From assembly GCA_028688055.1 (NCBI GenBank), contig JAQTYZ010000001.1, positions 39,866-103,865 of the forward strand: a stretch of DNA of 64,000 nt. Reading direction: 5' to 3'. The notes under the pieces are model-generated. The model was given only the letters and a program-made list of their open reading frames with translations, was not told the DNA's origin and made no database searches. Shown in pieces: positions 9,036 through 47,874 of the stretch. The stretch is from Patescibacteria group bacterium (GTDB lineage Bacteria; Patescibacteriota; Patescibacteriia; Buchananbacterales; UBA6539). The stretch's first letter is position 1. Every line of letters starts with the position of its first letter. A program made the position numbers and the translations under genes.

Positions 9036-9111
9036 GCCGAGATAGCTCAGCTGGTAGAGCGCTTCCTTGGTAAGGAAGAGGTCCCGGGTTCAATTCCCGG
9101 TCTTGGCTCCA
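9036..9111 (+). tRNA. tRNA-Thr (anticodon GGT)
   Basis: The sequence folds into a cloverleaf with acceptor GCCGAGA/TCTTGGC, a TAGCTCAGCTGGTAGAGC D-arm, anticodon loop TTGGTAA and T-arm GGTTCAATTCC. CCA is encoded. Confidence 0.85.
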
Positions 9112-9113
9112 GT

Positions 9114-9199
9114 GGGTCGGTACCGAAGCGGTCAAACGGGGCTGACTGTAAATCAGCTGGCTTTAGCCTTCGGAGGTTCGAATCCTTCCCGGCCCACCA
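9114..9199 (+). tRNA. tRNA-Tyr (anticodon GTA), with a long variable arm
   Basis: The anticodon stem-loop is GCTGA-CTGTAAA-TCAGC, the variable arm is TGGCTTTAGCCTTCGG, the T-arm is GGTTCGAATCC and the acceptor is GGGTCGG/CCGGCCC. CCA is encoded. It starts 2 nt after the preceding tRNA. Confidence 0.8.
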
Positions 9200-9238
9200 T
9201 GCCAGCATCATTCATAAGTATTACCTGCCATTGCCTAA

Positions 9239-9311
9239 GCCAACGTAGCTCAGTTGGTAGAGCAACAGTTTTGTAAACTGTGGGTCGTCGGTTCGAGCCC
9301 GACCGTTGGCT
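9239..9311 (+). tRNA. tRNA-Thr (anticodon TGT)
   Basis: The acceptor is GCCAACG/CGTTGGC, the anticodon stem-loop is ACAGT-TTTGTAA-ACTGT and the T-arm is GGTTCGAGCCC. There is no encoded CCA. Flanks extend the acceptor into a ~22-bp stem. Confidence 0.8.
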
Positions 9312-9414
9312 TAGGTAATGGCAGGTCGAACCATCTCGCTTAGTCGGGATTGGTCGTGGGTAGTTTATTCGGCGCCACTCCCAGCGCTAATTAAATAACT
9401 GAATCGAAAATTTT

Positions 9415-9570
9415 ATGTCTCAGGACAACATGATAAAATTTGAGTGCACCGAATGTAAGAGAGTAAATTATTTTTCTCACAAAAATAAAAAAATTCTCAA
9501 GGACAGATTAGAAATGAAAAAATTCTGTAAGCACTGTTCAAAACATACCTTGCATAAAGAAACAAAATAG
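9415..9570 (+). CDS. rpmG: 50S ribosomal protein L33 (zinc-ribbon type)
   Basis: This is a 51-aa ORF below the track's 60-aa cutoff: [51 protein letters not shown]. The CxxC...CxxC pattern and the KNKK / RLE.KK.C..C..HT.H.ETK motifs match L33. It lies between tRNA genes, the classic tRNA-rpmG-tRNA-Trp context. Confidence 0.85.
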
Positions 9571-9639
9571 CATATGGCGTATGGCAATTGGCGAATGGAT
9601 TTATCTATTGGCTACAAGCTATACGCTATTTGCTAATAT

Positions 9640-9713
9640 GGGGGCGTAGTTCAACAGTAGAACGGCGGTCTCCAAAACCGCAGACGAGGGAGCGTCACCT
9701 TCCGCCCCTGCCA
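9640..9713 (+). tRNA. tRNA-Trp (anticodon CCA) with an atypical T-loop
   Basis: The acceptor is GGGGGCG/CGCCCCT (G1:T72 wobble), the D-arm is GTTC-AACAGTA-GAAC and the anticodon stem-loop is GCGGT-CTCCAAA-ACCGC. The T-stem is GAGGG/CCTTC, but the loop is AGCGTCA and lacks the TTCRA consensus. CCA is encoded and a terminator follows. Confidence 0.6.
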
Positions 9714-32265: not shown

Positions 32266-32341
32266 TGGTCGGGCTGGCGGGATTTGAACCCACGACCTCA
32301 TCGTCCCGAACGATGCGCGCTACCAGCTGCGCTACAGCCCG
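32266..32341 (-). tRNA. tRNA-Pro (anticodon CGG)
   Basis: The reverse complement TCGGGCTGTAGCGCAGCTGGTAGCGCGCATCGTTCGGGACGATGAGGTCGTGGGTTCAAATCCCGCCAGCCCGACCA folds into a cloverleaf with anticodon loop TCGGGAC and T-arm GGTTCAAATCC. CCA is encoded. Confidence 0.85.
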
Positions 32342-34975: not shown

Positions 34976-34987
34976 TAAAATCCAGCT

Positions 34988-36031
34988 ATGGATATAACAC
35001 AATATTTTGAAGCCGCTTTGCGGAGCAAGGCGTCTGATCTTCATTTAGTATCGGGAAATCGACCAACCTTGCGTATTCAAGGTATTTTAGAGCCGATTAA
35101 TGAGGTCGTTTTGAATCCCGCCGAGCTAGAGGAAGCTGTTAATGCTTTAATGTCACCGGAAGAAATTGATGTTTTTAAAAAAGAAAAAGAGTTGGACTTG
35201 GCACTGGATATTGCGGGTGGTCATTTTCGAGTAAATTTACATCGTCAAGAAGGTCAAATTGGCGTTTCGGCTCGCGTCATTCCGGAAATAATTCCCACGC
35301 CCAAAGAAATTGATTTTGACGAGACGATTTATCAACTCAGTCATTTGAACCAGGGCTTGATTTTGGTGACCGGACCGTCAGGCTCGGGCAAGTCGACGAC
35401 GCTCGCGGTGTTACTCAATTTAATTAACGCCGAGCGACGCGCCCACATTATTACCATTGAAGATCCAATTGAGTTTATTTTTAAAGAAAACCAGAGTATC
35501 ATTGAGCAGCGTGAATTAGGGCGCGACACTCATTCATTCCATGAAGCGCTTAAACGCGCGTTACGGCAAGATCCGAATGTCATTATGGTCGGGGAAATGC
35601 GTGACACCGACACGATCACGGCAACTTTAACCGCGGCGGAAACCGGCCACTTAGTGCTGTCGACGCTTCACACTAATACCGCGTCCGAGACGGTGGAAAG
35701 AATTGTCGATACTTTTCCGTCACATCAGCAGCAGCAAATTTTGCTTCAATTAGGTTCAGTTTTACGAGCGGTTATTTGTCAGCAGATGTTGCCCAAAAAA
35801 GACGGTGGTATTGTCGTGGCCAGAGAAATTATGATTAATACGCCAGCCATTGCCAATTTGATTAGAGAAAACAAGTTAGCTCATATCCCGTCAGCGATGC
35901 AGACGGGGCGCAGTGAAGGGATGGAAACGATGCGGGCTTCGATTAAAAGACTTTATGAGCAGGGGATAATCAGCAAACAAGTTTATGTTAATCGCACCGG
36001 AACGACCGATACTATGAATACTTATTATTAA
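34988..36031 (+). CDS. pilT: Type IV pilus retraction ATPase PilT
   Basis: It has Walker A GPSGSGKSTT, the Asp box, Walker B VIMVGEMRD and His box, and an AIANLIRE motif. Length is 347 aa. Confidence 0.8.
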   Translation: MDITQYFEAALRSKASDLHLVSGNRPTLRIQGILEPINEVVLNPAELEEAVNALMSPEEIDVFKKEKELDLALDIAGGHFRVNLHRQEGQIGVSARVIPEIIPTPKEIDFDETIYQLSHLNQGLILVTGPSGSGKSTTLAVLLNLINAERRAHIITIEDPIEFIFKENQSIIEQRELGRDTHSFHEALKRALRQDPNVIMVGEMRDTDTITATLTAAETGHLVLSTLHTNTASETVERIVDTFPSHQQQQILLQLGSVLRAVICQQMLPKKDGGIVVAREIMINTPAIANLIRENKLAHIPSAMQTGRSEGMETMRASIKRLYEQGIISKQVYVNRTGTTDTMNTYY

Positions 36032-36041
36032 CGAATAAATT

Positions 36042-36383
36042 ATGACTGATGAACGCTGGACAAATATTTTAGGGCACATCAAAGATAATTTTGAAGTGAT
36101 TAGCGAAACCACTGAAGTGATACCCGAAGAAGTTGGGACCGGATCAATTGAAATAATTGAATTTAACGGCCCGGCCGGAAAAATAAAACTTGAACGCACG
36201 ACGCAGCCTTTGGTCATTGATAAAAAAACCTTGGGCTCCAAAAGAATCGGCAGCCAAGCGACCGTTGAATATATTTATTCTGATACGGAGAAGGTTCATA
36301 AGTTTACCGCCTACAAATTTGATGAGGCCACGGCTGATTGGGTTGAATTAAAAATGGAAAAAGGTGACACCGCATTTTTTTAA
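36042..36383 (+). CDS. Hypothetical protein
   Basis: ORF track only. I recognised no motifs. Confidence 0.3.
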   Translation: MTDERWTNILGHIKDNFEVISETTEVIPEEVGTGSIEIIEFNGPAGKIKLERTTQPLVIDKKTLGSKRIGSQATVEYIYSDTEKVHKFTAYKFDEATADWVELKMEKGDTAFF

Positions 36384-36411
36384 AACTAAATAATTTTTAA
36401 AAAACAAAAAT

Positions 36412-36744
36412 ATGGTTAAGAAACAAAAAATCAATGAGTCCGAAGTAATGAAATTTGGTTTTTTGGGTGGCATCGCCGAAGCCGCCTACTGTTTTATTGT
36501 TGTTTTGGTGATGGAGTCTCTAAATCAGGCAATGCCTCAAGGACCGTCCGGGTCTTATGGCTTTTTGATATTTCTCTTAATTTTTGTTTTTTCCGCGGGC
36601 GTATCTGGAATATTAGTCTTTGGCTATCCCGCCTATTTAGCCATCCAAAAGCGTTATATTGAATCATTAATGACGGCCATTACTTCCTTTGTCGCCTTGG
36701 CTATCACTGGCATTCTGGTCTTTATGTTAATTTCTTTGGTTTAA
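36412..36744 (+). CDS. Hypothetical small membrane protein
   Basis: Three predicted TM helices. Confidence 0.3.
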   Translation: MVKKQKINESEVMKFGFLGGIAEAAYCFIVVLVMESLNQAMPQGPSGSYGFLIFLLIFVFSAGVSGILVFGYPAYLAIQKRYIESLMTAITSFVALAITGILVFMLISLV

Positions 36745-37154
36745 TGAAAAGTTTTTTTAAGTCAAAAATCTTAGTCGTCTTATTGCTGACCATAATGCCA
36801 ATTGGTTTAGTCGGCTGTTTTAAAAAAAATACTATTGTCAATAAATCGATTGACAGCATTCCGGCCGTTAATAATAATACTAATATCGCAATTAATCACG
36901 TTGAGCTTGAAACTCAGTATCAGACTAAACTACACGATATTTTGAAGCTTGACCCCGATCATAACAATGTCTCGGATATCAAACAAAAGATTTTAGACTT
37001 AACGGTTCCGACCAAATTTTTAGATTTGCATTTGAAATTGGTTTTAGCGCTCGACAGCCTTGAACAAGGTCAAGCGGCTGCTAACCAAAATAAGGTTGCT
37101 AAGGCTTTAGCTGAGCTTGAAAAATTAAAAACTCAATATCCTTGGCTAAATTAA
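36744..37154 (+). CDS. Putative lipoprotein
   Basis: It has a signal peptide with the lipobox LVGC. Confidence 0.45.
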   Translation: MKSFFKSKILVVLLLTIMPIGLVGCFKKNTIVNKSIDSIPAVNNNTNIAINHVELETQYQTKLHDILKLDPDHNNVSDIKQKILDLTVPTKFLDLHLKLVLALDSLEQGQAAANQNKVAKALAELEKLKTQYPWLN

Positions 37155-37167
37155 TCATTGCAATTTT

Positions 37168-37650
37168 ATGAAAAAAAATCAGGGCTTAACTTTAATTGAA
37201 TTGTTAGTGGTGATTTTAATTATTGCGATGTTGGCAACGTTTGGTGTGGTATCGTATAAAGAAGCGCGTGCTAAGGGACGTGATACCAAACGGGTTTATG
37301 ATGCGGCCCAATATGTCAAAGCCATGGTTTTATATGCTCAGGAAAACAGCGGCAGCTATCCGACCGCTAGCGGATTTTTAGGCCGTGGTGGCGCGATTGA
37401 TTCAGAAATTGCTAAATATTTGCCAACACCCCCTAAGGACCCTTCTGATACAGGCGGCGTAACGGTTGGTAGCTCATACTATTATTATTTAGCCAGCAAT
37501 AACTGTGAGGGCGATAATTTGCCAACAATTCACGTACAAAATATTGAGACATCAAATGCTAGCTATCATCAGAACCCTTGCACACTTGGAGCTAGTGGAA
37601 GTGAAAATGGCTTTGCCAGTCAAGCCGATTATTTGTTGATTGTTCGTTAA
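37168..37650 (+). CDS. Type IV pilin / pseudopilin (class III signal peptide)
   Basis: MKKNQG|LTLIELLVVILIIAMLA shows the prepilin cleavage site G^L, Glu at +5 and a hydrophobic alpha1 helix. Confidence 0.7.
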   Translation: MKKNQGLTLIELLVVILIIAMLATFGVVSYKEARAKGRDTKRVYDAAQYVKAMVLYAQENSGSYPTASGFLGRGGAIDSEIAKYLPTPPKDPSDTGGVTVGSSYYYYLASNNCEGDNLPTIHVQNIETSNASYHQNPCTLGASGSENGFASQADYLLIVR

Positions 37651-38356
37651 TTCTATGCCCCGTGTCGATTTAGATCAGCGTCTATTAGACCGGGATTATT
37701 TGGCAGAACGTATTTTGCAGGTGAAAAAGAAACGGAAAAAAGGTAGCTGGAAATTTAAATTTTGCTGTTTGCCAATTGTTATATTTTTTTTGTCAGCCTT
37801 GATTTTTGGTGTGGTGGTTGTTGCCAAAATTGGTGTTTGGCAGATTCCGATTGCCTCGAAAATTTTTTATACTTTACCGACGCCAAGCCGAATTGTCGTG
37901 GTTAATAATCCGGCCAGCGTCGCCGCGAGTCAATTGAATGTCAGACCGGATGAATCAAACGGAGCGGCGACGCTGAGTATTTCCGAACAGCAGCTGACTT
38001 TTTTAATCAGGCAATCACTGACGGGCAAATCCAGCTCGGTCTTTGCGCCAAGCTTGCAAGCTGTTATTAATCCTGATAATATTGAATTTTTCGGCCTGAT
38101 GGTTAAACCCGCCGCGCTAAATGTTAAGCTAAAAATCTTGCCGTTCGTCGAAAATAATAAATTTAAGTTTCGTATTGTTGAGGCGACCATTGGCAACCTG
38201 TCGTTGCCGGCGGTTTTGGCCCGTTGGTTTATTGATAAGTATTTGCCTTTGCCGTTAGCTAGTATCAGCAATATGTATCCGCAGTTGCCGTTGCGCGACA
38301 TTAAATTGGAACACGGCCAGCTGAATTTTATCTTTTCCTTAAACAATTCACAGTAA
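37640..38356 (+). CDS. Hypothetical membrane-anchored protein
   Basis: A basic N-terminus and one TM helix are followed by a beta-rich domain. It is downstream of the pilin gene. Confidence 0.35.
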   Translation: MFVNSMPRVDLDQRLLDRDYLAERILQVKKKRKKGSWKFKFCCLPIVIFFLSALIFGVVVVAKIGVWQIPIASKIFYTLPTPSRIVVVNNPASVAASQLNVRPDESNGAATLSISEQQLTFLIRQSLTGKSSSVFAPSLQAVINPDNIEFFGLMVKPAALNVKLKILPFVENNKFKFRIVEATIGNLSLPAVLARWFIDKYLPLPLASISNMYPQLPLRDIKLEHGQLNFIFSLNNSQ

Positions 38357-38369
38357 GCTTAGAATAAAA

Positions 38370-39140
38370 ATGCTACAAAAAATTATCAATCGTTTAATCC
38401 CAATGGCTGTACCGGTGTCAATCTTTTTTTTGGTTGAGGAAGTTTATCGCAATCCAAAATGGCTGTATTCAATTGCCGCCATTATTTTAGTCGTCGTTTT
38501 TGTCGGGGTTTGGCAGCTAACTGGCCGCCACCTCATCAGTCAAAAATTTTGGCGTTTTGTCATTACGCCGGTGCTCTTTTCGGCCGGCGCAATCCTTTAT
38601 CTAATTTTTTTAAAAAGCGAATTGTTGAAGCAGCTTTTTTTATTAGGTTTTGTCATTATGAGTTGGATATCGCTGGAAGTGATTTTTTTGCGTTTTAATT
38701 TCAGGCCCAAGTACCAGGTCCATTCGCTGGAAAATATTTTTACTCATCTGGATATTATTACCATTTTTTTAATCACGAGCGGTTTGTATAGCTTCATTGC
38801 TTTTTTGGGTTTTGATTTATGGACCATGTTGGCGATTTTGACAGCGGTGGTTTTGGCCCTTTCTTATCAATTGATTTGGACTAGCGATGCGACCATTGTT
38901 TCCGGGGCCCCATATTCATTAGTTATCACTTTAACGGTGGCTGAAACATTTTTGGCGGTAAGCTATTTACCCACTAGTGTCTATGTCGGCGGAATGATGG
39001 TATCCTTAAGTTATTATTGTATTGGCGGCTTGTCGCGCAATTGGTTATTGGGTAATCGCGAAGCCAAAGTCGTTCGGCGTTATTTGGTGACCGGTGCCAT
39101 TCTCGCCGTTTTAGTTTTAGCCACCGCTAAATGGTTTTAA
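38370..39140 (+). CDS. Hypothetical polytopic membrane protein
   Basis: About eight predicted TM helices. Confidence 0.35.
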   Translation: MLQKIINRLIPMAVPVSIFFLVEEVYRNPKWLYSIAAIILVVVFVGVWQLTGRHLISQKFWRFVITPVLFSAGAILYLIFLKSELLKQLFLLGFVIMSWISLEVIFLRFNFRPKYQVHSLENIFTHLDIITIFLITSGLYSFIAFLGFDLWTMLAILTAVVLALSYQLIWTSDATIVSGAPYSLVITLTVAETFLAVSYLPTSVYVGGMMVSLSYYCIGGLSRNWLLGNREAKVVRRYLVTGAILAVLVLATAKWF

Positions 39141-39141
39141 G

Positions 39142-40302
39142 ATGAAATTTTTAAACAACAAAAAAGGTGATCGGATTTCCGACGTGATAATTCTGGCGTT
39201 GATTTTTGGCTTTGCCGCCGGGGTAGTTGGTGAGATCGTCGCTGATGTTTACATTAACCCGTGGCAAACCGATTTTGCTTTCAACGATGTTAATCAGGTC
39301 GTGCCGGTAAATAACATCCCCGAATTGCGTCGCGTGAAGACATTTTTGGGTATTGAACAAGATTTTCAAGTCAATAGTGCTGTTACTAAGGCCGCGCCCG
39401 CGCTGGCCGGTATTTATCAAAAAAAATCTCTGGCCCCAAGTCCGGTGAATCAAATTTACCTGCCTAAAGATTTATTAGCCTCTTCTTTTATTTTAACTTC
39501 TGACGGCTGGCTGGTTAGCGTCGGCCAAGGTTTAGCTGATTATAAAAGTGATCAGTTGATTGTATCTTTCAATAACATCGTTTATCCAGTTATCAAAAAA
39601 ATAACCGACCCGGTAACAGGAGTAGCCTTCATCAAAATTAATGATAATAATTTACCAGTCGTACTGCTCGGTGACTCTGATGCACTGACACTAGGGCAGG
39701 TTGTCGTGGTGCTTAATTCGCTCAATCAAGTTTCCGTCAGCACCATTAAAGATGCTAATTATTCAAATGTGTTGACTCAGCAAGACTTGGTTCAGTCTTC
39801 AGATGCTTATGCTAAGTCAATTTTGCTTTCCGACGCTATTGCAAAATCAAACATTGGTAGTCCGGTTTTGAATTTAGGGGGCGAAGTAATTGGCCTAATC
39901 AAACCGATTGATAATGATAAAACTTTGACAGAAGTTTTACCCTTGAACAGCTTCAAAAATATTTTGATTAATATCCTCCGCACCGGTTTAGCCAAGCGTC
40001 CGACGCTTGGTGTAAAATATCTTGACTTATCACAGGCAGTTGGCCTTGATCCGGCCGCTTCTAATGGTTTAACTAAAGGGGCGTTGCTTACTGAAAAACC
40101 AGCCAAAAATTCAGCTGCTGCGGCCGCTGGTTTATTGGTTAATGATATTATAACGGCGGTTAATGGCAATCCCGTCGATGAGTCAAATAGCTTGAGTGAT
40201 TTAATTCTAAGTTATAAGCCAGCCGATAAATTGGAGCTAGATCTTATTCGAAATGGTTCGCCAATTCAGGTGGCAGTTACGTTGTTAGAAAATTCAAAGT
40301 AA
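39142..40302 (+). CDS. HtrA/DegP-like trypsin-fold protein with a C-terminal PDZ domain and all three catalytic residues replaced (predicted pseudoprotease)
   Basis: GDSDALTLGQVVVV aligns with DegP ADSDALRVGDYTVA. SDAIAKSNIGSPVLNLGGEVIGLI aligns with [25 protein letters not shown]. In these alignments His aligns to Gln, Asp aligns to Gly (DPVTGVAFIKI against DPRSDIALIQI) and Ser aligns to Ile. There is an N-terminal TM anchor. Confidence 0.6.
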   Translation: MKFLNNKKGDRISDVIILALIFGFAAGVVGEIVADVYINPWQTDFAFNDVNQVVPVNNIPELRRVKTFLGIEQDFQVNSAVTKAAPALAGIYQKKSLAPSPVNQIYLPKDLLASSFILTSDGWLVSVGQGLADYKSDQLIVSFNNIVYPVIKKITDPVTGVAFIKINDNNLPVVLLGDSDALTLGQVVVVLNSLNQVSVSTIKDANYSNVLTQQDLVQSSDAYAKSILLSDAIAKSNIGSPVLNLGGEVIGLIKPIDNDKTLTEVLPLNSFKNILINILRTGLAKRPTLGVKYLDLSQAVGLDPAASNGLTKGALLTEKPAKNSAAAAAGLLVNDIITAVNGNPVDESNSLSDLILSYKPADKLELDLIRNGSPIQVAVTLLENSK

Positions 40303-40375
40303 AAAAAGAAACGCAGGAGTTTTCCCTAACTAGGATAGCCCATGCGTTTTTGTTTTTCTTCAGTCCTCGGCGGTT

Positions 40376-41872
40376 TTACGCCGGAACCTCAATGAAGTCT
40401 GCTTCGGCTGGACCAGTACTGACCCGATCAATCACAATCGGTTCGGTGGCGCCGATGTTGAGTACGCCTTCGACCAGTTTTATGTAGTCTTTGGCCGCCT
40501 TCGGCAATTTCTGCCAGTCAGTCAGGCCGCGAATATCTTCAGTCCAGCCACTACAGGTCAAATAGCTGACGCCGACTTGCCCAATTAGTGTTGAGTCATC
40601 CGTCATGAAAAAGATTTCCCTGCCATTAAGCGTCCAACAACGGCCAACTTTGAGTTCGGGTTCTCCCGAAAGGGCATCGAGCTTAGCCAGCGTGACTTTG
40701 GTCACGCCATTAAGGCGGCAACCGGTTCTGGCAATGACACTGTCAAACCAGCCGATGTTGCGCACCCGTCCGGTGGTTGCGCCTTGCTCGTCGTCGACTC
40801 TTCGTTTGGTTGGATCAGTCGATCCTTGAAGTCGACGTGATAAGTCGTTTTCGAACTGCGTCGGAAATCCACCGGAGCCGACTTTGGACATAAATGCCTT
40901 GGCAACGCCACGGACTTCTCGAACCATCGTCGGTCCGATGCCAATGCCGACGCAAACGCCGCCGGCGGTGGTGTGAGACGAAGTCACATTTGGGTAACTT
41001 CCGAAGTCAATGTCGAGAGCCGAACCTTGGGCACCTTCGAAGAGAATTGCCCCGCCGGACTGTAATGTCCGGTGTGCCAATTCGCAGACGTCGCCAATGA
41101 TGCCTAGTGCGACGATTTGTTGTCGGAGGCTTTCATAGTATTCGACGAGAGCATCGGGCAGAAACTTGACGTAGTCAAGCGGGTGACAGAATCGACTGTA
41201 GTCAAATTCCGTCGCTTTGACGCGACCGCCCTCAATGAGTTTGGCGTTGGCGCGACGATCCTTTTCTTCCAGCTTGCGGAAGATTGCTTTCCAATCGGCA
41301 ACGGCAATGCCGCTCGCGGCAAACAGTCGCGTTTTTTCCTCAAGTTGGCGCCGAAGATGGGCCTCGAATCTTTGCGCGTCAAGCAGTTCGTGCGCATGAA
41401 TTGCCGTCCGGCTAGCCTTGTCGGCGTAAGTCGGGCCAATCCCTTGAGCGGTGGTGCCAACTTGACTGCCGCTCTTAGCCTTGAGCCACTCTTCCACCAT
41501 ATCCTGAATTCGGTGATAAATCATCGTCAGGCAACAACGGCCGTCGAGCATTAGTCGCGGTATCGGGTCAATGCCAAAACTTCGCACCGATTCGATTTCA
41601 TGAAGCAGGGCCGAAGGACTAATAATTGCTCCGGCACCAACAGCGGACAGGACTTCGCCAACCGAAATGGCTGACGGCAGAGCATGAAGCACGAGCGGCT
41701 CAACCTGGCCAGTCAAGAGGTTTAGCGTCATGGTCGTGTGACCCGCATTGTTGCCGCCTTGACCTCGGACCACAAGCTGATACAATCCTGATCTGGCACG
41801 TCGATAAGACTCCGTGCCCTTGCTTTCGTCACCGTACTGAATGCCGGTGAGCACGTCTACTAATCTTGACAC
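40376..41872 (-). CDS. purA: Adenylosuccinate synthetase
   Basis: QYGDESKG, NNAGHT, GTTAQGIGPTYADK, NVTSSHTTAGG and GATTGR are present. It uses a GTG start with the SD AGGAG 8 nt upstream. GC is about 58%. Confidence 0.85.
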   Translation of the reverse strand: MSRLVDVLTGIQYGDESKGTESYRRARSGLYQLVVRGQGGNNAGHTTMTLNLLTGQVEPLVLHALPSAISVGEVLSAVGAGAIISPSALLHEIESVRSFGIDPIPRLMLDGRCCLTMIYHRIQDMVEEWLKAKSGSQVGTTAQGIGPTYADKASRTAIHAHELLDAQRFEAHLRRQLEEKTRLFAASGIAVADWKAIFRKLEEKDRRANAKLIEGGRVKATEFDYSRFCHPLDYVKFLPDALVEYYESLRQQIVALGIIGDVCELAHRTLQSGGAILFEGAQGSALDIDFGSYPNVTSSHTTAGGVCVGIGIGPTMVREVRGVAKAFMSKVGSGGFPTQFENDLSRRLQGSTDPTKRRVDDEQGATTGRVRNIGWFDSVIARTGCRLNGVTKVTLAKLDALSGEPELKVGRCWTLNGREIFFMTDDSTLIGQVGVSYLTCSGWTEDIRGLTDWQKLPKAAKDYIKLVEGVLNIGATEPIVIDRVSTGPAEADFIEVPA

Positions 41873-41986
41873 GATATTTTCTCCTCTGGTTCGGGGGAAT
41901 ACTGATAACTAAATAAAAGGAACGCCTGGTCCCTCCGGCCTAAATAATAAATGACACCGTCGGTGGTGTCAATTATTATTTGTATT

Positions 41987-42265
41987 TTATTTGGTGTCTT
42001 CTAAAATTTTTGGGTTAGGGGAGTAGAGTCGATTTTTGATTTTCCACTTATCCACATACTGCCCAATGCCACTTTTATTAAGTTTATTCTTGGTTGTTGT
42101 TTTGCCCTGTGACCATTCTAATAGGCTGGAAAAGTTTATTTTATATCGACTTTGAACAACGATATATTTTAATTGTTCGGCTTTAATCGCTCGTCGTATC
42201 GTTTTAGTTTCGACGCCAAATAGTCTGGCTGCTTCGGAAACCGATACCCTGATAACATTTCCCAT
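41987..42265 (-). CDS. Small HTH_17 / excisionase-family DNA-binding protein
   Basis: VSVSEAARLFGVETKTIRRAIKAEQLKYIVVQSRYKINFSSLLEW matches the MerR-like Xis/HTH_17 fold. It is followed on its own strand by a hairpin gacacc/ggtgtc plus a T-rich tract. Confidence 0.55.
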   Translation of the reverse strand: MGNVIRVSVSEAARLFGVETKTIRRAIKAEQLKYIVVQSRYKINFSSLLEWSQGKTTTKNKLNKSGIGQYVDKWKIKNRLYSPNPKILEDTK

Positions 42266-42286
42266 ATGTCATTTATTATTAATTAT

Positions 42287-42308
42287 TTGTCTACAATATA
42301 CTAGACAA
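42287..42308 (+). promoter_or_regulatory. Inverted repeat upstream of the HTH_17 gene (candidate operator)
   Basis: The dyad ttgtcta-caatatac-tagacaa is 7 bp. It lies about 20-40 nt upstream of the minus-strand ATG at 42265. Confidence 0.35.
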
Positions 42309-42402
42309 AATACTATATCTATGATAGATTATCTAACTAAGACCGTCAATACAGATGTACTTAATCGGCAGAAAATTAGCTTTAAAATTAGAATTTTTAA
42401 GT

Positions 42403-42431
42403 TTGACTTAGAGTCAATAAATAGTTATAGT
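42403..42431 (+). promoter_or_regulatory. Promoter of the second ECF sigma gene, with a palindrome over the -35
   Basis: The -35 TTGACT, a 17-nt spacer and the -10 TATAGT are present. The -35 is part of the inverted repeat ttgact-tag-agtcaa. Confidence 0.45.
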
Positions 42432-42476
42432 TCCATTTATTACTGTAACGCTTATTTAGCTATTGCGTCTTAATTA

Positions 42477-43040
42477 ATGAAAGCTTCAAAACTGCAGGAC
42501 AAACTATTATTGTTGAGGTTAAAACGGAAAGATCCGGATGCTTTTGCTAAGGTTTATGACACCTATTCGACACCGATTTATCGATTTATTTATTTTAAGG
42601 TATCGAACCAGCAAGATGCCGAAGATTTAACCTCAGAAGTTTTTTTGAAAATTTGGCAATATGTCACCGAGACCGAAGAAGAAGTTGATAATTTGCGGGC
42701 TTTGATCTATCGCTCGGCCCGAAATTTAGTTATTGATTTCTATCGTCGTCGCGCCGCTAAAAGTTTGACGTCCGACATTGATGATATGGAAAATATCGTT
42801 GACGCGAGGCAACAAAGTTTGCTAGTTGGAATTGATACGACGCTGGCGATGACTAATGTTGAAAAAGTTTTGCGTCAACTCAAAGATGAATATCGTGAAG
42901 TAATCATTTTAAAATATCTTGAAGAAATGTCGATTGGTGAAATTGCCAATGTCTTAGGCAAGACCAAGGGCTCGGTCAGAGTATTATTGCACCGAGCGCT
43001 CAAGCTGGTTAAAGAACTATTGAATCAGAATGTCGAATAA
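42477..43040 (+). CDS. ECF-type RNA polymerase sigma factor
   Basis: Region 2 is EVFLKIWQYV...ALIYRSARNLVIDFYRRR. Region 4 is YREVIILKYLEEMSIGEIANVLGKTKGSVRVLLHRALKL. Confidence 0.8.
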   Translation: MKASKLQDKLLLLRLKRKDPDAFAKVYDTYSTPIYRFIYFKVSNQQDAEDLTSEVFLKIWQYVTETEEEVDNLRALIYRSARNLVIDFYRRRAAKSLTSDIDDMENIVDARQQSLLVGIDTTLAMTNVEKVLRQLKDEYREVIILKYLEEMSIGEIANVLGKTKGSVRVLLHRALKLVKELLNQNVE

Positions 43041-43899
43041 CGTCATCAACGAAATAAAAAAATTAAAGTCTGAAATTAAACCCCGACTGGAGTGGCAAAC
43101 TTTGAGCCGGGATGTTTTGTTATCTCAAATTAAAGAAACCGCCGCGCCGGAAAAAGTTTCGCTGGGCGTTTCGGGCTTCTGGTCAATTCTCAATCAAACT
43201 TTCCGCCAGGGCCTATTTGAACCGGTCGTCGTGATGTTTTTAATTTTAGGATCATTTTTAATGAGCAGCTTAACGATTAATGCCGCTTTTTATAGTTTGC
43301 CTGGTGATAATCTTTACCGGGTTAAGTTAGCTTTGGAAAAAACCCACGCGGCGTTTGTAACTGGTGACGAGCAGAAGTTGGAATTAAAAATCGAATATGC
43401 CGCCAAGCGGGTCGCGGAAATTGATAAATTGGTCGCGCAAACTAATGTTGATTCGGCCACCAAAAAACGAAATATTGAAGCAGCGGTCAATGAATTTAAA
43501 AATAATGTTACCGATGTTAACAGTCATTTGGCCAGATTAAATCAGTCAATCAAACAGTCAGACTCAGTTGAAAAAAACCACACCGTCAAAATGGCGCTAT
43601 TGGCCAGTACCAAAACTGAAGAATTAGTTAAAACCATTGATGAAAAAGTAAACCAGTTGACGGTGGATGAACAGCAAGATGTTTCTTCAGTAATTGCTGC
43701 GGCCGCTAAATCAGCCCAGGAAACCAGTATTTCCGTTCAGCAATTAGTCCAAGACGCTAATCAAAGTGGTGGCCCAGTCGAAGGGGTAGCCACTAGTACC
43801 GAATCAACAGTCAATGCTTCGACCACTGTCCCGGTTGGTAAAAGCGGTAATTCAGATTCCGGCCGTTTAGATATTGGAACGGACGTAACGGCAAATTAA
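43030..43899 (+). CDS. Putative anti-sigma factor (single-pass membrane protein with an extracytoplasmic coiled-coil domain)
   Basis: It overlaps the sigma gene by 11 nt. One TM helix (VVVMFLILGSFLMSSL) is followed by a long helical domain and a C-terminus rich in Ser, Thr and Gly. The assignment rests on genomic context. Confidence 0.45.
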   Translation: MSNNVINEIKKLKSEIKPRLEWQTLSRDVLLSQIKETAAPEKVSLGVSGFWSILNQTFRQGLFEPVVVMFLILGSFLMSSLTINAAFYSLPGDNLYRVKLALEKTHAAFVTGDEQKLELKIEYAAKRVAEIDKLVAQTNVDSATKKRNIEAAVNEFKNNVTDVNSHLARLNQSIKQSDSVEKNHTVKMALLASTKTEELVKTIDEKVNQLTVDEQQDVSSVIAAAAKSAQETSISVQQLVQDANQSGGPVEGVATSTESTVNASTTVPVGKSGNSDSGRLDIGTDVTAN

Positions 43900-43910
43900 T
43901 TTGTTATAAT
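43882..43910 (+). promoter_or_regulatory. Candidate extended -10 promoter for the large surface-protein gene
   Basis: TGtTATAAT ends at about 43910. This gives a ~245-nt leader ending in the SD AAAGGAAAA before the ATG at 44158. Confidence 0.4.
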
Positions 43911-44157
43911 TCCCCGGCGTCGCAAGACGTTGGGTAGTTATATTAAAACTCATTGAAGCTCTTTGGAGTAATTAGGTTTTAAGCCCCCTTAACTTTATTA
44001 GGCAAAGGTCGACTGTTAAAACAGTGCCTTGATAAACTAGGGAGTCAGGGTTTAAAAGTCATATTGACCATCAAGATGTTGTTAAGTTCGCCTAGGCGTA
44101 ACAATATTGATGTCTAACCAAATTGATTTAATGGGATTAAGAAAGGAAAATTAAAAA

Positions 44158-47100
44158 ATGCTTAAAAAATTACTAACCTACAGCGTAGTTCTTACTACCA
44201 TGGTTTGGTCCGTTGGTTTGATGGCCATGCCGGTGAGTGTTGGTGCTGCTGTTTCAGGCGATTTAGTTAAGCGAGCTAGCAGTTCCGCGGTTTACTACCT
44301 CGGTGCTGACAGCAAGCTTCACGTCTTTTTCAGTGCTGCTGACTATTACACCTGGTACTCGGATTTTTCTGGTGTTAAAACCATTTCGGAAACCGAGTTC
44401 TCATCATACGGCTTACCAGGGGAAAACGTTTTCCCAAGACCGGGCGTTAAGCTCGTTCAGGCCGTTGAAGGTCAGCCATGGCACACTTATAATGCCAATG
44501 TTTATGCTCTATCAGGAGATGGCATAACCCGAAAGATTGCTAGCGCTGCTGTTGCGGCTGCTATTTTTGGTGCCAATTGGGAAACTCAAATTATCCCAGT
44601 TGACATTACCATCTTTAGCCAGTTTGCTACCGGTGCTGATATCAATTCGGCTTCTGATTACGACAAAGCTTCCGAAATGAACAATGCTAGCTCAATCAAT
44701 GATGTCAAAAATCTAGGTAATGGCAATGTATCAACCGGTACTAGCCTAACCGTTTCTTTGGCTTCAGACACCCCAGCTAGTGGTATCGTTGTTGGAAATA
44801 CCATCAACAACAAATTCACCAAAGTTAATCTTACCGCTTCCGCTGACGGTGACATTGTCATCGACTCGCTAGTTGTAAGACGCGGTGGAACAGTTGCTTC
44901 CGACGGTGCTTTCAGCACCTTGGAAATCTTAGATGGTGCAACCATGATGAGAATTGGTGACACAAAAACCATCAATTCAACTCACATGGCAACCTTCAAT
45001 GAAGACATTAAGATTCCTGCCGGTACCACCAAGTCAATTTACTTGGCTGGTAACATGGGCAGTCTAGCCACTAAGGCTGGTGAAATTCCATCATTGGATC
45101 TATATTCAGTTACTTTAACTGGTAATGCTGCTGTTATCGGCAGTTTGCCAATTGTTGGTAACTACCAGAACCTAAATGGAACCATCACTGTCGGTGCTTT
45201 GACCGTTGCTAACGGAACCAACAATCCATCAGCTTCAACCCAGAAGATTGGTACTACCAAGTACATTGTCTCTGGTATTAAGTTGACTGCTAACTCAGTT
45301 GAAGACTTCAAAGTTTCCAGCTTAACCTTCAATGAAGGTGGAACGGCTGGCGATGCTGATGTTGCTAACTTACAGTTGTTAGCCGATGATGTTGTTGTTG
45401 CGACTGTTGCTAACCCAACCAGTAAGAATGTCGTTTTCAACCTATCGGCTAGCCCGGTCTTGGTTGCTAAAGGCAAGTCAGTTCAGTTTGATGTTCGTTT
45501 AGACATTGCTGACGGTTCAGCTCGAACCATCCGCTTTGATGTTAAGGACGAATCAGACGTCGTCGCTAAGGGCCAGTTATATGGTTCAGAAGTTAAGGCT
45601 TCTGCCGGAACCGGCGCGACCGCTGACGCTGATCCATTCTGGACAGCTCCAATTACCACTGTCTCAACCGGCACCCTAAGAATTGGCCCGGCCACTTTGT
45701 CCGCCGCCAATGTTCCGAATTCATCAACTCAAGTTGTCTTGGGTAAGTTTGAATTCGAAGCTAAGGGTGAGCCTTCAGTAATTACTTCCTTGCCAATCGC
45801 TTTCACCGTTACTACTTCATCAGGTAATTTATCAACCGACTCAACAGTCGACTTGACCAATGTTACCTTGTATGACGAAAACGGTTTGATTGTTGCTGGT
45901 CCGATTGACCCAGTAAGTAAGGGAACCCCTGGCAATAATGCCAAGGAATTGTTAGTTGCTACTTCAACTGACACCTTAACTGTCCCAGTTGGTGTTCACA
46001 CCTACACTGTTAAGGGTGACTTGGATTCAGACTTCGGTTCAAACGATACTATCGTTGCCCGAATCAACCCAGGTCAGGTCACTGATAAAGGCGATACTAC
46101 CGCTGTAACTATTTCAGCTACCCCAACAACCGATCAGAGTTCAGCCACCATGACGGTGCAGTCAGCTCAGTTGTCGGTTTCAGTTCTTAACACCCCAGTT
46201 GCTTCACAAATTGTTGCTGGAACTAAGAATTTGGAATTCGCCAACATCAGCTTAGGTACTCAGTCATCTGGTGAAGACATTAAGGTAACAACCATTAAGG
46301 TTGCTATCCACACCACCGGTGCTGCTTACCCAGCTCAGGTTTCGAACTGGTCAATATATGACGGCGCAACTAAGTTGGCTGTCACTTCAGACCCAGATTC
46401 AAACTTGTCATCGACTGCTGCCGCCGCTTCAACTTCAACATTCACCTTGTCAACTCCATTGGTCTTAACCAAGGGAACCAGCAAGACCTTGACTGTTAAA
46501 GGTGACGTTGCCGCTTCAGCCACTTCCGGCTCCATTAAGGCTGGTATGGCTGATTCAGTTGGTGCTGATAACATTTCAGCTAAGGGCAATGGCTCCGGCA
46601 CTGACGCTTCAATTACAATGAGCGTTAGCGACGGTCAGGCTATGACCCTAAATAGCGTTGGAACTCTAACCTTAACGTTAGACACAAGCTCGCCAAAGAC
46701 TGGCTTAATGCCAGGTGCTCCATCAAGCGGCTTAACCTTCGCTGTCTGGAATGCTTCTGCTCAGTATGAAGCAGTTAACATTGAGAAAATCTACTTGACC
46801 GCAACTGCCGCTAATTCCGGTGGTTGGGATCAAATTGCCAAGGTTTACATTTATGATGGCAGTACTATGTTGGCTTCAGTCGCTCCGACTTCTTCGGACG
46901 GCACTGCTAAAACTGTCTTAATTGATGTAACCAACAGTCCGATCCAGATTCCTAAGGACTCCAGCAAGAAGTTGACCATTAAGGTTGACACCACTGCTGC
47001 CGATGCCCAAAATGGATCAACCGGAACTTCCGGACAAGGATTGGCGATGACCATTACCGCCGCTGGTGATGTTACTGCCAAGGGTGCCCAGTCGGGTACA

Positions 47101-47874
47101 ACTGTCAGCTCAATCACCTTGACCGGTATTGCGTCAAACACCCAGTACTTGTATCGAACTGTCCCAACAATTGCTACTAACGACTTATTGTCGTCAGGTA
47201 AAGTTTCCAGCGGCACCTTAGATAGCGGAACTGCCGTAGGCAAAGACCTATATGCTTTCTCCGTTACCGCGGGTTCAACTGGTGACTTGGCATTGTATGA
47301 TGTAAGCTTCTACGTTGCTACCAACACCGCCACCATTACTAATATGGTGATTTCTGATGGTACTAACAACGTTGCTTACCAGCCAACCGGCGGTGACATT
47401 GCTGGATTCTTCCAGACCCAAGATGTCGGAACTGATGCGTGGAACGGAGCAACTCGATTTGTCTTCGTCAGCGACTTTACAGCTCCTGCTTCTTCAACCG
47501 CTGCAACCGTCGTGCCTTACACGATTGCTGCCAACACCACTAAGACTTTCACCCTACGTGGTGACGTCGCTTGTGTCACTGTTGGTGGTAGCGTCTGTTC
47601 AGGTGCAAGCGGAAGTGGATCACTTAGCGTCCAGTTGATGGGTAATACGGCTGCACCAGCCACTTACCCTGTCGCTATCTACACCTTGTCCAAGAATATT
47701 GGTCAGTTGTATAGCAACAGCTTCATCTGGTCAGATTTGACTGCTACCCACAATGCGGGTATCTCAGATCCAACCGCTACCACTTCATCTCAGTGGACCA
47801 ACGGTGCTTACGTAGCTTTGACCAATGGTGGCAAACTACAGGCAACCTCCACTGCGGTTACCTTCAGCAAGTAA
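44158..47874 (+). CDS. Large secreted surface protein with S-layer-like or adhesin-like composition and repeated beta-domains
   Basis: It is 1238 aa with a signal peptide (MLKKLLTYSVVLTTMVWSVGLMAMPVSVGA). It is extremely rich in Thr, Ser, Ala, Gly, Val and Asn, with few charged or aromatic residues. The domain-end motifs TYTVKGDLDSD, TLTVKGDVAAS and TFTLRGDVACV recur. GC is about 47% with a distinct codon bias, which fits high expression. A strong terminator follows. Confidence 0.55.
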   Translation: MLKKLLTYSVVLTTMVWSVGLMAMPVSVGAAVSGDLVKRASSSAVYYLGADSKLHVFFSAADYYTWYSDFSGVKTISETEFSSYGLPGENVFPRPGVKLVQAVEGQPWHTYNANVYALSGDGITRKIASAAVAAAIFGANWETQIIPVDITIFSQFATGADINSASDYDKASEMNNASSINDVKNLGNGNVSTGTSLTVSLASDTPASGIVVGNTINNKFTKVNLTASADGDIVIDSLVVRRGGTVASDGAFSTLEILDGATMMRIGDTKTINSTHMATFNEDIKIPAGTTKSIYLAGNMGSLATKAGEIPSLDLYSVTLTGNAAVIGSLPIVGNYQNLNGTITVGALTVANGTNNPSASTQKIGTTKYIVSGIKLTANSVEDFKVSSLTFNEGGTAGDADVANLQLLADDVVVATVANPTSKNVVFNLSASPVLVAKGKSVQFDVRLDIADGSARTIRFDVKDESDVVAKGQLYGSEVKASAGTGATADADPFWTAPITTVSTGTLRIGPATLSAANVPNSSTQVVLGKFEFEAKGEPSVITSLPIAFTVTTSSGNLSTDSTVDLTNVTLYDENGLIVAGPIDPVSKGTPGNNAKELLVATSTDTLTVPVGVHTYTVKGDLDSDFGSNDTIVARINPGQVTDKGDTTAVTISATPTTDQSSATMTVQSAQLSVSVLNTPVASQIVAGTKNLEFANISLGTQSSGEDIKVTTIKVAIHTTGAAYPAQVSNWSIYDGATKLAVTSDPDSNLSSTAAAASTSTFTLSTPLVLTKGTSKTLTVKGDVAASATSGSIKAGMADSVGADNISAKGNGSGTDASITMSVSDGQAMTLNSVGTLTLTLDTSSPKTGLMPGAPSSGLTFAVWNASAQYEAVNIEKIYLTATAANSGGWDQIAKVYIYDGSTMLASVAPTSSDGTAKTVLIDVTNSPIQIPKDSSKKLTIKVDTTAADAQNGSTGTSGQGLAMTITAAGDVTAKGAQSGTTVSSITLTGIASNTQYLYRTVPTIATNDLLSSGKVSSGTLDSGTAVGKDLYAFSVTAGSTGDLALYDVSFYVATNTATITNMVISDGTNNVAYQPTGGDIAGFFQTQDVGTDAWNGATRFVFVSDFTAPASSTAATVVPYTIAANTTKTFTLRGDVACVTVGGSVCSGASGSGSLSVQLMGNTAAPATYPVAIYTLSKNIGQLYSNSFIWSDLTATHNAGISDPTATTSSQWTNGAYVALTNGGKLQATSTAVTFSK

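What the first reader, a model, noticed from the sequence alone, without database searches (positions are those of the whole stretch)
39142..40302. Membrane-anchored HtrA/DegP-PDZ homolog with His, Asp and Ser all substituted (pseudoprotease)
The fold-defining blocks align well with DegP, but the catalytic triad positions read Gln, Gly and Ile (SNIGSP instead of GNSGGP). A conserved but dead HtrA with an intact PDZ domain would be a non-catalytic binder, chaperone or regulator. It sits directly downstream of the type IV pilin and membrane-protein genes, which may point to pilus or envelope assembly.
Basis: partly seen in the sequence, partly recalled or inferred. Interest (0 to 1): 0.5.

Follow-up and report, generated by a model that had tools for sequence, protein, structure and literature searches.

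The report
Dead HtrA protease paired with membrane protein
This gene encodes a membrane-anchored relative of the HtrA/DegP quality-control proteases that has lost all three catalytic residues yet is conserved across many Patescibacteria, always directly after an uncharacterised nine-helix membrane protein, so it is most likely a non-cutting binding subunit and is wrongly annotated as a protease.

Summary
ORF 39142..40302 (+, 386 aa) has an N-terminal membrane helix, an HtrA-type protease fold and one PDZ domain. The triad positions read Gln129, Gly160 and Ile238 (SNIGSP instead of GNSGGP). The protein has no His or Cys, so no triad can lie elsewhere.

The loss is clade-wide. None of 149 top representatives (50% identity clusters) and none of 44 species-level homologs has an intact triad. 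The gene is under purifying selection (dN/dS 0.09 and 0.18), and the PDZ peptide-binding loop is essentially invariant.

The pilus idea is not supported: a pilin gene lies within the fetched flanks in 7 of 40 relatives. The constant neighbour is the upstream DUF5656-like 9-helix membrane protein (38370..39140), present in 41 of 41 loci and in 33 of 34 in the reverse test. The dead HtrA's membrane helix is its most conserved part.

In Moranbacteria-type genomes an active HtrA, a PrsA-like foldase and sometimes ClpB lie next to the DUF5656 and dead-HtrA pair.

Best reading: a non-catalytic, PDZ-bearing subunit of a DUF5656 membrane complex in envelope protein quality control. It is a new variant of a known kind (compare MamO and DEG7). 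Interest is moderate.

The parts
39142..40302 (+). Gene for the membrane-anchored HtrA-family pseudoprotease (386 aa)
   Evidence: ORF; Trypsin_2 + PDZ_2; identical to NCBI MAG protein P0001, annotated 'S1C family serine protease'; AF2 pLDDT 84; Foldseek to AlgW/DegP/MucD/DegS
39181..39252 (+). Transmembrane anchor, residues 14-37 (DVIILALIFGFAAGVVGEIVADVY), with a G23-x3-G27-x2-G30 motif
   Evidence: Hydropathy peak; AF2 helix 8-37; among the most conserved regions of the protein (mean 0.83, with F22, G23 and G27 invariant); G23/G27/G30 are kept in the broad clade
39316..39375 (+). Conserved juxtamembrane motif, residues 59-78 (IPELRRVKTFLGIEQDFQVN)
   Evidence: Mean conservation 0.84, with 10 of 20 positions at 90% or more; low AF2 confidence for 42-69
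39376..39987 (+). Catalytically dead chymotrypsin-fold (HtrA protease-like) domain, residues 79-282, including the LTSDGW motif (39493-39510)
   Evidence: Pfam Trypsin_2; Foldseek; mean conservation 0.61
39526..39528 (+). Gln129 at the catalytic His position
   Evidence: Alignments: no His among the 47 close family members or the 44 species-level homologs, and His in only 2 of 149 broad-clade representatives
39619..39621 (+). Gly160 at the catalytic Asp position
   Evidence: Gly in 81 of 149 representatives, Asp in only 16 of 149
39847..39864 (+). SNIGSP replacing the GNSGGP nucleophile and oxyanion-hole motif; Ile238 (39853-39855) sits at the Ser position
   Evidence: mostly L/I/V in the close family; Ser in 11 of 149 representatives, never together with His and Asp
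39988..40284 (+). PDZ domain, residues 283-381, with the carboxylate-binding loop RPTLGV (39997-40014)
   Evidence: Pfam PDZ_2; R286 and G290 invariant and L289 in 44 of 46; kept at 0.83-0.98 in the broad clade
38370..39140 (+). Partner gene: DUF5656-like 9-helix integral membrane protein (256 aa). Its stop codon lies 1 nt before the pseudoprotease start codon
   Evidence: Junction TAA-G-ATG; weak Pfam DUF5656 match (E = 0.0088), with precomputed PF18900 on the identical protein P0121; AF2 pLDDT 91 and pTM 0.89 with 9 helices; directly upstream in 41 of 41 loci
39120..39137 (+). Conserved C-terminal tail of the partner (ATAKWF-COOH), predicted to be extracytoplasmic
   Evidence: Trp at the penultimate position in 42 of 44 loci; positive-inside rule gives N-in/C-out (K+R 12.7 in versus 3.2 out)
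36744..37154 (+). 136-aa protein with a lipobox-like N-terminus (LVGC); a frequent but not constant neighbour
   Evidence: Homolog present in 27 of 40 loci; sequence
36042..36383 (+). 113-aa soluble protein of unknown function; a frequent neighbour
   Evidence: Homolog present in 25 of 40 loci; no Pfam hit
37640..38356 (+). 238-aa single-pass membrane protein; a neighbour in about half of relatives
   Evidence: Homolog in 19 of 40 loci; one TM peak

Best explanation
The gene encodes a non-catalytic descendant of an HtrA protease. It is a single-pass membrane protein with its N-terminus in the cytoplasm. Its extracytoplasmic part keeps the HtrA protease fold and a functional-looking PDZ domain, but it cannot cut peptide bonds. 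It is expressed from the same operon as the 9-helix DUF5656 membrane protein encoded 1 nt upstream. It most likely forms a stable membrane complex with that protein through its unusually conserved transmembrane helix (GxxxGxxG) and juxtamembrane motif. In that complex it would serve as the peptide- or protein-binding subunit. The PDZ groove, and perhaps the remnant substrate cleft, would bind a C-terminus or an unfolded strand, either from envelope client proteins or from the partner's own extracytoplasmic tail. The pair would then act in envelope protein quality control or biogenesis as a holdase, adaptor or sensor rather than a degrader.

Shown: loss of the triad, clade-wide conservation under purifying selection, the invariant gene pairing, and the predicted topology.

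Inferred: the physical complex, the identity of the PDZ ligand, and the quality-control role.
For: Triad loss: Q129/G160/I238, with 0 of 149 representatives intact and 0 of 44 species-level homologs intact; the protein has no His or Cys. The fold is retained: AF2 pLDDT 84 and Foldseek E about 1e-22 to AlgW, DegP, MucD and DegS. Selection: dN/dS 0.18 and 0.09. The PDZ loop R-x-x-L-G-[VI] is conserved. The TM helix (0.83) and juxtamembrane motif (0.84) are more conserved than the protease-like (0.61) and PDZ (0.65) domains. Pairing: the DUF5656-like gene is directly upstream on the same strand in 41 of 41 species-level loci, with a median gap of about 9 nt. A DUF5656-seeded search finds the dead HtrA directly downstream in 33 of 34 loci. 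The pairing survives where the rest of the synteny is lost. Topology places the partner's C-terminus and the PDZ domain on the same side of the membrane. Quality-control neighbourhood: in 4 of 4 Moranbacteria-type loci the pair lies within about 5 kb of an intact HtrA and a PrsA-like rotamase, and in 2 of the 4 ClpB lies between them.
Confidence: 0.5

Rival explanations
1. The dead copy is a regulatory paralog of an active HtrA. It would form mixed oligomers with, or otherwise activate or restrain, a catalytically active HtrA encoded elsewhere in the genome, as the pseudoprotease MamO promotes MamE-dependent proteolysis.
For: Active and dead copies lie in one locus in 4 of 4 Moranbacteria-type genomes. 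HtrAs oligomerise through their protease domains (PMC3194040 abstract). The MamO precedent is documented in PMC4794232.
Against: No intact HtrA was found in the 64-kb window or within 4-10 kb of the dead copy in any of the 83 loci L001-L083. The strongest conservation lies in the TM helix and in the pairing with DUF5656, not in adjacency to an active HtrA. The two ideas do not exclude each other.
Confidence: 0.15
2. It is a component of type IV pilus assembly, for example a GspC/PilP-like PDZ-bearing inner-membrane accessory protein.
For: In the window and its closest relatives the gene follows PilT, three small genes and a pilin gene. GspC models give weak PDZ-only hits (E = 0.015-0.049).
Against: A pilin gene lies within the fetched flanks in only 7 of 40 species-level loci, and PilT in 17 of 40. 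P0044, P0045 and the Falkowbacteria-type loci keep the DUF5656 and dead-HtrA pair without an adjacent pilin gene. The Moranbacteria-type loci have no pilus genes nearby.
Confidence: 0.05
3. It is a DegS-like envelope-stress sensor for the neighbouring ECF sigma factor, acting without proteolysis, for example by sequestering the DUF5667 membrane protein.
For: It has the DegS architecture of a TM anchor, a protease fold and one PDZ domain. An ECF sigma gene (42477..43040) and a DUF5667 membrane-protein gene (43030..43899) lie 2 kb downstream, and this is conserved in Buchananbacteria-like loci.
Against: The sigma/DUF5667 pair is present in only 15 of 40 loci, and is separated from the gene by an oppositely oriented HTH gene and sometimes by purA.
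Confidence: 0.05
4. It is still a peptidase that uses an unconventional catalytic apparatus such as a Ser/Lys dyad, or it is a decaying pseudogene.
For: Several Ser and Lys residues are conserved (S120, S179, K95, K165).
Against: S179 and K165 are also conserved in canonical HtrAs, so they look structural. To my knowledge no Ser/Lys dyad has been described on the chymotrypsin fold. The oxyanion-hole Gly is lost. Decay is excluded by full-length conservation in at least 149 clusters and by dN/dS of 0.09-0.18.
Confidence: 0.03

Closest known systems
MamO of magnetotactic bacteria (HtrA-derived pseudoprotease; PMC4794232)
   Same: It is a trypsin/HtrA-fold domain with a degenerate triad and a non-Gly residue at the oxyanion-hole position. 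It is retained under selection, associated with a polytopic membrane module (a fused TauE domain in MamO), and coexists with an active HtrA paralog (MamE). Here, coexistence with an active HtrA is seen in Moranbacteria-type loci.
   Different: MamO binds metal through a surface di-His motif, whereas this protein has no His at all. MamO has no PDZ-centred conservation. Its membrane module is fused to it and is TauE-like, whereas here the module is a separate DUF5656 gene. There is no magnetosome context, and the origin is independent, within Patescibacteria.
DegS / AlgW (membrane-anchored, single-PDZ HtrA stress-sensor proteases)
   Same: Same architecture of an N-terminal TM anchor, an HtrA protease fold and one PDZ domain; these are among the best structural matches (7co7 AlgW, 6ew9 DegS). 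The PDZ carboxylate-binding loop is conserved. From established knowledge, DegS and AlgW PDZ domains bind C-terminal aromatic motifs (YxF, WVF).
   Different: DegS and AlgW are active proteases whose PDZ-bound peptides switch on cleavage of an anti-sigma factor. Here His, Asp, Ser and the oxyanion hole are all gone. NCBIfam DegS models score 56-70 bits against cut-offs of 408-423.
Degenerate Deg/HtrA domains of plants and algae (second protease domain of DEG7, AtDeg16; PMC3194040, PMC3473262)
   Same: These are HtrA-family protease domains with mutated triads that are retained and, in DEG7, specialised for protein-protein interaction and oligomerisation.
   Different: They are eukaryotic, soluble, multi-domain proteins with no membrane anchor and no dedicated membrane-protein partner.
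Human HTRA3 PDZ domain ligand preference
   Same: The best experimental ligands are FGRWV (0.6 uM), FARWV (1.1 uM) and FGRWI (1.0 uM) (PMC9361347 Table 4). These resemble the partner's tail T-A-[K/R]-W-[F/I/V]-COOH, and 'ARWV' occurs exactly in L023 and L078.
   Different: The HTRA3 PDZ is only distantly related to this one (2p3w, E = 0.0058). FGRWF binds about 13-fold more weakly than FGRWV. The Moranbacteria-type partner tails do not fit the pattern. This is an analogy, not a test.

Membership tests
HtrA/DegP (MEROPS S1C) serine endopeptidases | Chymotrypsin-fold protease domain | tested here: met
   Pfam Trypsin_2 E = 1.9e-8; Foldseek E about 1e-22, with TM-score normalised to the target up to 0.82, to MucD, AlgW, DegP and DegS
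HtrA/DegP (MEROPS S1C) serine endopeptidases | One or more C-terminal PDZ domains | tested here: met
   PDZ_2 E = 1.8e-11 at residues 319-381; carboxylate-binding loop R286/L289/G290 conserved
HtrA/DegP (MEROPS S1C) serine endopeptidases | His-Asp-Ser catalytic triad | tested here: not met
   Q129/G160/I238; no His anywhere in the protein; 0 of 149 clade representatives intact
HtrA/DegP (MEROPS S1C) serine endopeptidases | GNSGGP nucleophile and oxyanion-hole motif | tested here: not met
   SNIGSP in the query and x-Y-L-G-S-P in the close family
HtrA/DegP (MEROPS S1C) serine endopeptidases | Curated NCBIfam score cut-offs for Do/HtrA/DegS/DegP/DegQ models | tested here: not met
   Best score 93.2 bits against a cut-off of 416.2 (TIGR02037); all other models are also far below their cut-offs
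HtrA/DegP (MEROPS S1C) serine endopeptidases | Trimer-based oligomer | not testable with these tools
   Only monomer prediction was available
DegS-type site-1 protease of ECF sigma signalling | TM anchor, single PDZ domain, and proteolysis of an anti-sigma factor encoded with an ECF sigma factor | tested here: not met
   The architecture matches, but catalysis is impossible, and the ECF sigma/DUF5667 pair is nearby in only 15 of 40 loci
MamO-type HtrA pseudoprotease | Degenerate triad on an HtrA/trypsin fold | tested here: met
   definition from PMC4794232
MamO-type HtrA pseudoprotease | Surface di-His metal-binding motif, fused TauE domain and magnetosome-island context | tested here: not met
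   0 His; no fused transporter domain; the context is Patescibacteria housekeeping genes
GspC/PilP-like secretion or pilus PDZ accessory protein | Conserved linkage to T2SS or type IV pilus genes, and an HR domain rather than a protease fold | tested here: not met
   Pilin within the fetched flanks in 7 of 40 loci and PilT in 17 of 40; GspC models match only the PDZ domain at E = 0.015 or weaker
DUF5656 (PF18900), for the partner gene 38370..39140 | Pfam gathering score | tested here: inconclusive
   hmmscan gives 15.8 bits against a cut-off of 23.3 (E = 0.0088). However, the identical protein P0121 and most homologs carry a precomputed PF18900 hit

The most novel reading that the evidence does not exclude
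The DUF5656 protein and the dead HtrA form a previously undescribed two-protein envelope machine specific to Patescibacteria (CPR). An HtrA protease, duplicated next to its active parent, was disarmed and became the extracytoplasmic, PDZ-bearing client- or tail-binding cap of a 9-helix membrane protein whose fold has no match among solved structures. This would define both a function for DUF5656 and a new way in which these minimal, host-dependent bacteria handle envelope proteins.
Probability: 0.35. Interest if true: 0.65.

Novelty: new variant of a known kind. Interest (0 to 1): 0.5.

Why it matters
Three reasons.

1. Annotation. This clade contains at least 149 clusters at 50% identity. Public records label its members 'S1C family serine protease', 'serine protease Do' or simply 'PDZ domain-containing protein'. 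It cannot be a serine protease, so protease inventories and metabolic or proteostasis reconstructions of Patescibacteria are inflated.

2. Evolution. The clade adds a large, independently evolved bacterial example of a disarmed HtrA to the precedents of MamO and plant DEG7. Moranbacteria-type genomes still carry the intact-triad HtrA gene beside it, which fits an origin by local duplication.

3. A handle on an unknown family. It gives DUF5656 its first concrete, testable functional association: an obligate partner with a peptide-binding PDZ domain on the same face of the membrane. This lies in a group of organisms whose envelope biology is almost entirely uncharacterised.

Tried and rejected
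- Relocated triad: rejected, because the protein has no His or Cys.
- Second HtrA gene in the window or in any locus flank, searched with a canonical-HtrA HMM on six-frame translations: none found.
- Covariation between the partner's last residue and the HtrA columns: the top columns are spread in proportion to domain size, which indicates phylogenetic confounding.
- Pairing of a basic residue at -2 of the tail with an acidic residue 295 on the PDZ beta-2 strand: no association (21:9 versus 8:1).
- Broad DUF5656 alignments (A3, A4, A5) were too divergent to seed the metagenome scan, so the close-family alignment A2 was used instead.
- The promoter and terminator scan of 32000-44500 gave nothing decisive about operon boundaries.
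- Literature: no paper mentions DUF5656, and no relevant paper links the candidate phyla radiation with HtrA.
- PrsA-like rotamase or DivIC homologs near the pair outside Moranbacteria-type loci: none.
Full report
**1. The observation**

The ORF lies exactly where stated: 39142..40302 on the + strand, ATG start, 386 aa. Pfam detects a Trypsin_2 domain at residues 114-252 (E = 1.9e-8) and a PDZ domain at 319-381 (E = 1.8e-11). The NCBIfam models for Do/HtrA/DegS/DegP/DegQ all match, but at 42-93 bits against curated cut-offs of 408-800 bits. The best solved-structure sequence matches are DegP-like, MucD, DegQ, DegP and DegS.

Three separate MAFFT alignments with 40-70 intact HtrAs all place Gln129, Gly160 and Ile238 in the His, Asp and Ser columns. 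SNIGSP stands where GNSGGP should be (coordinates checked). The protein contains no histidine and no cysteine.

A hydrophobic N-terminal helix spans about residues 14-37 and is preceded by a basic N-terminus (MKFLNNKKGDR). This predicts a membrane anchor with the N-terminus inside, so the rest of the protein lies outside the cytoplasm.

An AlphaFold2 model built on 46 family sequences is confident over both domains (mean pLDDT 84, above 90 across most of residues 80-380). Its best Foldseek matches are AlgW, DegP, MucD and DegS (E about 1e-22, TM-score normalised to the target up to 0.82).

**2. The loss of catalysis is clade-wide**

The protein is identical to an NCBI MAG protein from a Patescibacteria bacterium (309-kb contig), annotated 'S1C family serine protease'. 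About 47 close cluster representatives share its length and 33-73% identity, and many are labelled Candidatus Buchananbacteria. Below them the scores drop sharply to canonical HtrAs. In this family:
- the His column never holds His;
- the Asp column is Gly in 37 of 47;
- the Ser column is Leu, Ile or Val in 43 of 47.

A scan of species-representative genomes returned 41 loci, labelled Buchananbacteria, Falkowbacteria, Uhrbacteria, Parcubacteria and unclassified Patescibacteria. None of the 44 homologs examined has His at the triad position, and only one has Ser at the nucleophile position.

An exhaustive profile search of 1.84 billion cluster representatives gave 150 top hits, all at E = 1e-59 or better. 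Of the 149 aligned, none has an intact triad.

The two homolog pairs close enough for unsaturated estimates give dN/dS of 0.18 and 0.09. These are maintained, functional genes that have been disarmed, not pseudogenes.

**3. What is conserved instead**

Within the close family, conservation by region (mean frequency of the commonest residue) is as follows:

| Region | Mean conservation |
|---|---|
| Transmembrane helix | 0.83 |
| Juxtamembrane motif IPELRRVKxFLGIEQDF | 0.84 |
| Protease-like domain | 0.61 |
| PDZ domain | 0.65 |

In the transmembrane helix F22, G23 and G27 are invariant, G30 is nearly so, and the polar residues Q/E31 and D35 are conserved.

Across the broad clade the surviving positions are G23/G27/G30, the LTxDGW motif, D156, and the PDZ peptide-binding elements R286, L289, G290, G313, D335 and R370. 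Y293 and D295 on the PDZ beta-2 strand are conserved in the dead clade but differ from canonical HtrAs.

So the peptide-binding PDZ loop and a sequence-specific membrane helix are under constraint, while the active-site positions drift. That is the pattern expected of a binding subunit held in a membrane complex.

**4. Genomic context**

In the window the gene order is: MgsA, NUDIX, a PilT-like ATPase, a 113-aa protein, a 110-aa membrane protein, a 136-aa lipobox protein, a type IV pilin, a 238-aa single-pass protein, a 256-aa polytopic protein, and then the dead HtrA. After it come a convergent purA, an HTH gene, an ECF sigma factor, a DUF5667 protein and a 1238-aa protein.

Relatives at 45-47% identity keep this order. 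More distant ones lose the pilin and PilT genes from the neighbourhood. Among 40 species-level loci, the window's neighbours have homologs within the fetched flanks as follows:

| Neighbour | Loci with a homolog (of 40) |
|---|---|
| 136-aa protein | 27 |
| 113-aa protein | 25 |
| PilT | 17 |
| ECF sigma and DUF5667 | 15 |
| Pilin | 7 |

The 256-aa membrane protein is different. It lies directly upstream on the same strand in 39 of 40 loci by phmmer, and in 41 of 41 once a profile is used. The median intergenic gap is about 9 nt, and it is 1 nt in the window (TAA-G-ATG). Pfam calls its homologs DUF5656.

In the reverse test, a metagenome scan seeded with the DUF5656 family found the dead HtrA directly downstream in 33 of 34 loci that had room for it. 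The exception is a 67-aa truncated remnant at a contig edge.

The real unit is the DUF5656 and dead-HtrA gene pair.

**5. The partner protein**

The positive-inside rule across 47 homologs supports a topology with the N-terminus inside and the C-terminus outside (K+R 12.7 on predicted inside loops versus 3.2 outside). Its C-terminus would therefore lie on the same face of the membrane as the dead HtrA's PDZ domain.

The partner ends in [T/S]-[A/S]-[K/R/Q]-W-x-COOH, with Trp penultimate in 42 of 44 loci and a hydrophobic last residue in 33. This resembles the best experimental ligands of the human HTRA3 PDZ domain: FGRWV at 0.6 uM, FARWV at 1.1 uM and FGRWI at 1.0 uM (PMC9361347 Table 4). It suggests that the PDZ domain may clamp the partner's tail.

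The support for that idea is only circumstantial:
- two covariation tests were uninformative or negative;
- Moranbacteria-type partners end in ...SPW-RMRA or ...SPW-RILV, so the Trp is kept but is not penultimate.

The Trp could simply be an interfacial anchor for the last membrane helix.

**6. Origin and functional neighbourhood**

The closest intact-triad HtrA, P0049, belongs to a Moranbacteria clade within Patescibacteria. In all four of its relatives whose loci were examined, one of them on a 1.2-Mb contig (CP064975.1), the gene order is: DivIC, a PrsA-like rotamase, an intact HtrA (His/Asp/Ser and GNSGGP), then either one small gene or ClpB, then DUF5656, then a second HtrA-like gene. The triad positions of that second gene read D/H/I, N/N/T, G/G/V and Q/N/V.

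This shows three things:
- active and dead copies can coexist in one genome;
- their adjacency fits an origin of the dead copy by local duplication;
- the pair sits among protein-folding and quality-control genes.

No rotamase, DivIC or intact HtrA was found in the window or in the flanks of the other loci. Whether the window's organism keeps an active HtrA remains unresolved.

**7. Most likely mechanism**

The protein cannot be a serine protease. The best-supported reading (confidence about 0.5) is a non-catalytic extracytoplasmic subunit, tethered by a specific transmembrane helix to the DUF5656 protein and probably co-translated with it. Its PDZ groove, and possibly the remnant substrate cleft, would bind C-termini or unfolded strands of envelope proteins, or the partner's own tail. 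The pair would then work as a holdase, adaptor or sensor in envelope protein quality control.

Rival readings:
- a MamO-like regulator of an active HtrA paralog (0.15; it does not exclude the main reading);
- a pilus accessory protein (0.05);
- a non-proteolytic DegS-like sensor for the nearby ECF sigma factor (0.05);
- residual unconventional catalysis, or a decaying pseudogene (0.03).

**8. Comparison with what is known**

HtrA-derived pseudoproteases are already established:
- MamO and independently degenerated MamE paralogs in magnetotactic bacteria (PMC4794232);
- the degenerate domain of plant DEG7, which mediates trimerisation (PMC3194040);
- predicted inactive Deg proteins of plants and algae (PMC3473262).

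This clade shares the principle with them. It differs in lineage, in lacking any His-based metal site, in keeping a conserved PDZ domain and a conserved TM helix, and in its obligate pairing with a separate DUF5656 membrane protein.

It is homologous to S1C peptidases but fails their defining catalytic features, so it should be filed as a non-peptidase homolog. No paper in the searchable library mentions DUF5656 or links HtrA with the candidate phyla radiation in a relevant way.

**9. Verdict**

The pilus link is not supported, and the gene pairing with DUF5656 is the new and solid result. I rate it a new variant of a known kind, of moderate interest (0.5). It matters mainly for three reasons: it corrects a widespread annotation error, it gives DUF5656 its first functional handle, and it is a clear case of an intact-triad HtrA gene still lying beside its disarmed relative.

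Noticed in passing
window 40376..41872 (-): The adenylosuccinate synthetase ORF (498 aa, GTG start) sits in a 2-kb bin of about 51% GC, against about 39-41% in the flanking bins. Its Pfam match is split into two stretches, which suggests an insertion or extension of about 60 aa relative to the 430-434-aa versions in relatives. The gene occupies this position only in some relatives (for example L003, L005, L014, L016, L022) and is absent there in others (L001, L006). It may be a mobile or horizontally acquired insertion between the dead HtrA and the HTH gene.
   Followed up: partly
window 42477..43040 and 43030..43899 (+); 44158..47874 (+): An ECF sigma factor gene overlaps by 11 nt a gene for a DUF5667 single-pass membrane protein, a likely anti-sigma factor. 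A gene for a 1238-aa protein with no Pfam hit follows. This trio is conserved downstream of the dead HtrA in Buchananbacteria-like loci.
   Followed up: partly
L084 4927-9973; L085 4918-9433; L086 4773-13002; L087 4671-12756: Moranbacteria-type genomes carry a conserved cluster: DivIC, a PrsA-like rotamase, an intact HtrA, then one small gene or ClpB, then DUF5656 and a dead HtrA. In L086 the ClpB gene is called as two ORFs (430 and 463 aa), whereas L087 has one of 883 aa. This could be a frameshift or a genuinely split gene.
   Followed up: partly
L009, L013, L017, L024, L027, L029, L033, L034, L037, L041, L043 (titled 'uncultured Gammaproteobacteria'); L039 (titled 'archaeon'): Several public MAG records that carry this Patescibacteria-type locus, with the same neighbours such as MgsA, NUDIX and the 113-aa gene, are titled as Gammaproteobacteria or archaeon. 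These are probably taxonomic mislabels or placeholders.
   Followed up: no
window 36042..36383 and 36744..37154 (+): Two small proteins of unknown function accompany the DUF5656 and dead-HtrA pair in 25 and 27 of 40 loci, including distant ones. One is a 113-aa soluble protein. The other is a 136-aa protein with a lipobox-like LVGC. They may be further components of the same module.
   Followed up: partly
window 9036..9713 (+): There is a cluster of four tRNA genes (Thr-GGT, Tyr-GTA, Thr-TGT, Trp-CCA). A lone tRNA-Pro (CGG) lies at 32266..32341 on the minus strand.
   Followed up: no
L083 2-202: A 67-aa remnant of a DUF5656-like gene lies at a contig edge with no dead HtrA downstream. It is the only exception to the pairing and may be a degraded copy or an assembly artefact.
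   Followed up: partly
L019 4924-6084: This is the only species-level homolog with Ser at the nucleophile position (DY[S]GGP). It still has Lys at the His position and Asn at the Asp position. It also has an unusually long 296-nt gap after its DUF5656 gene.
   Followed up: no
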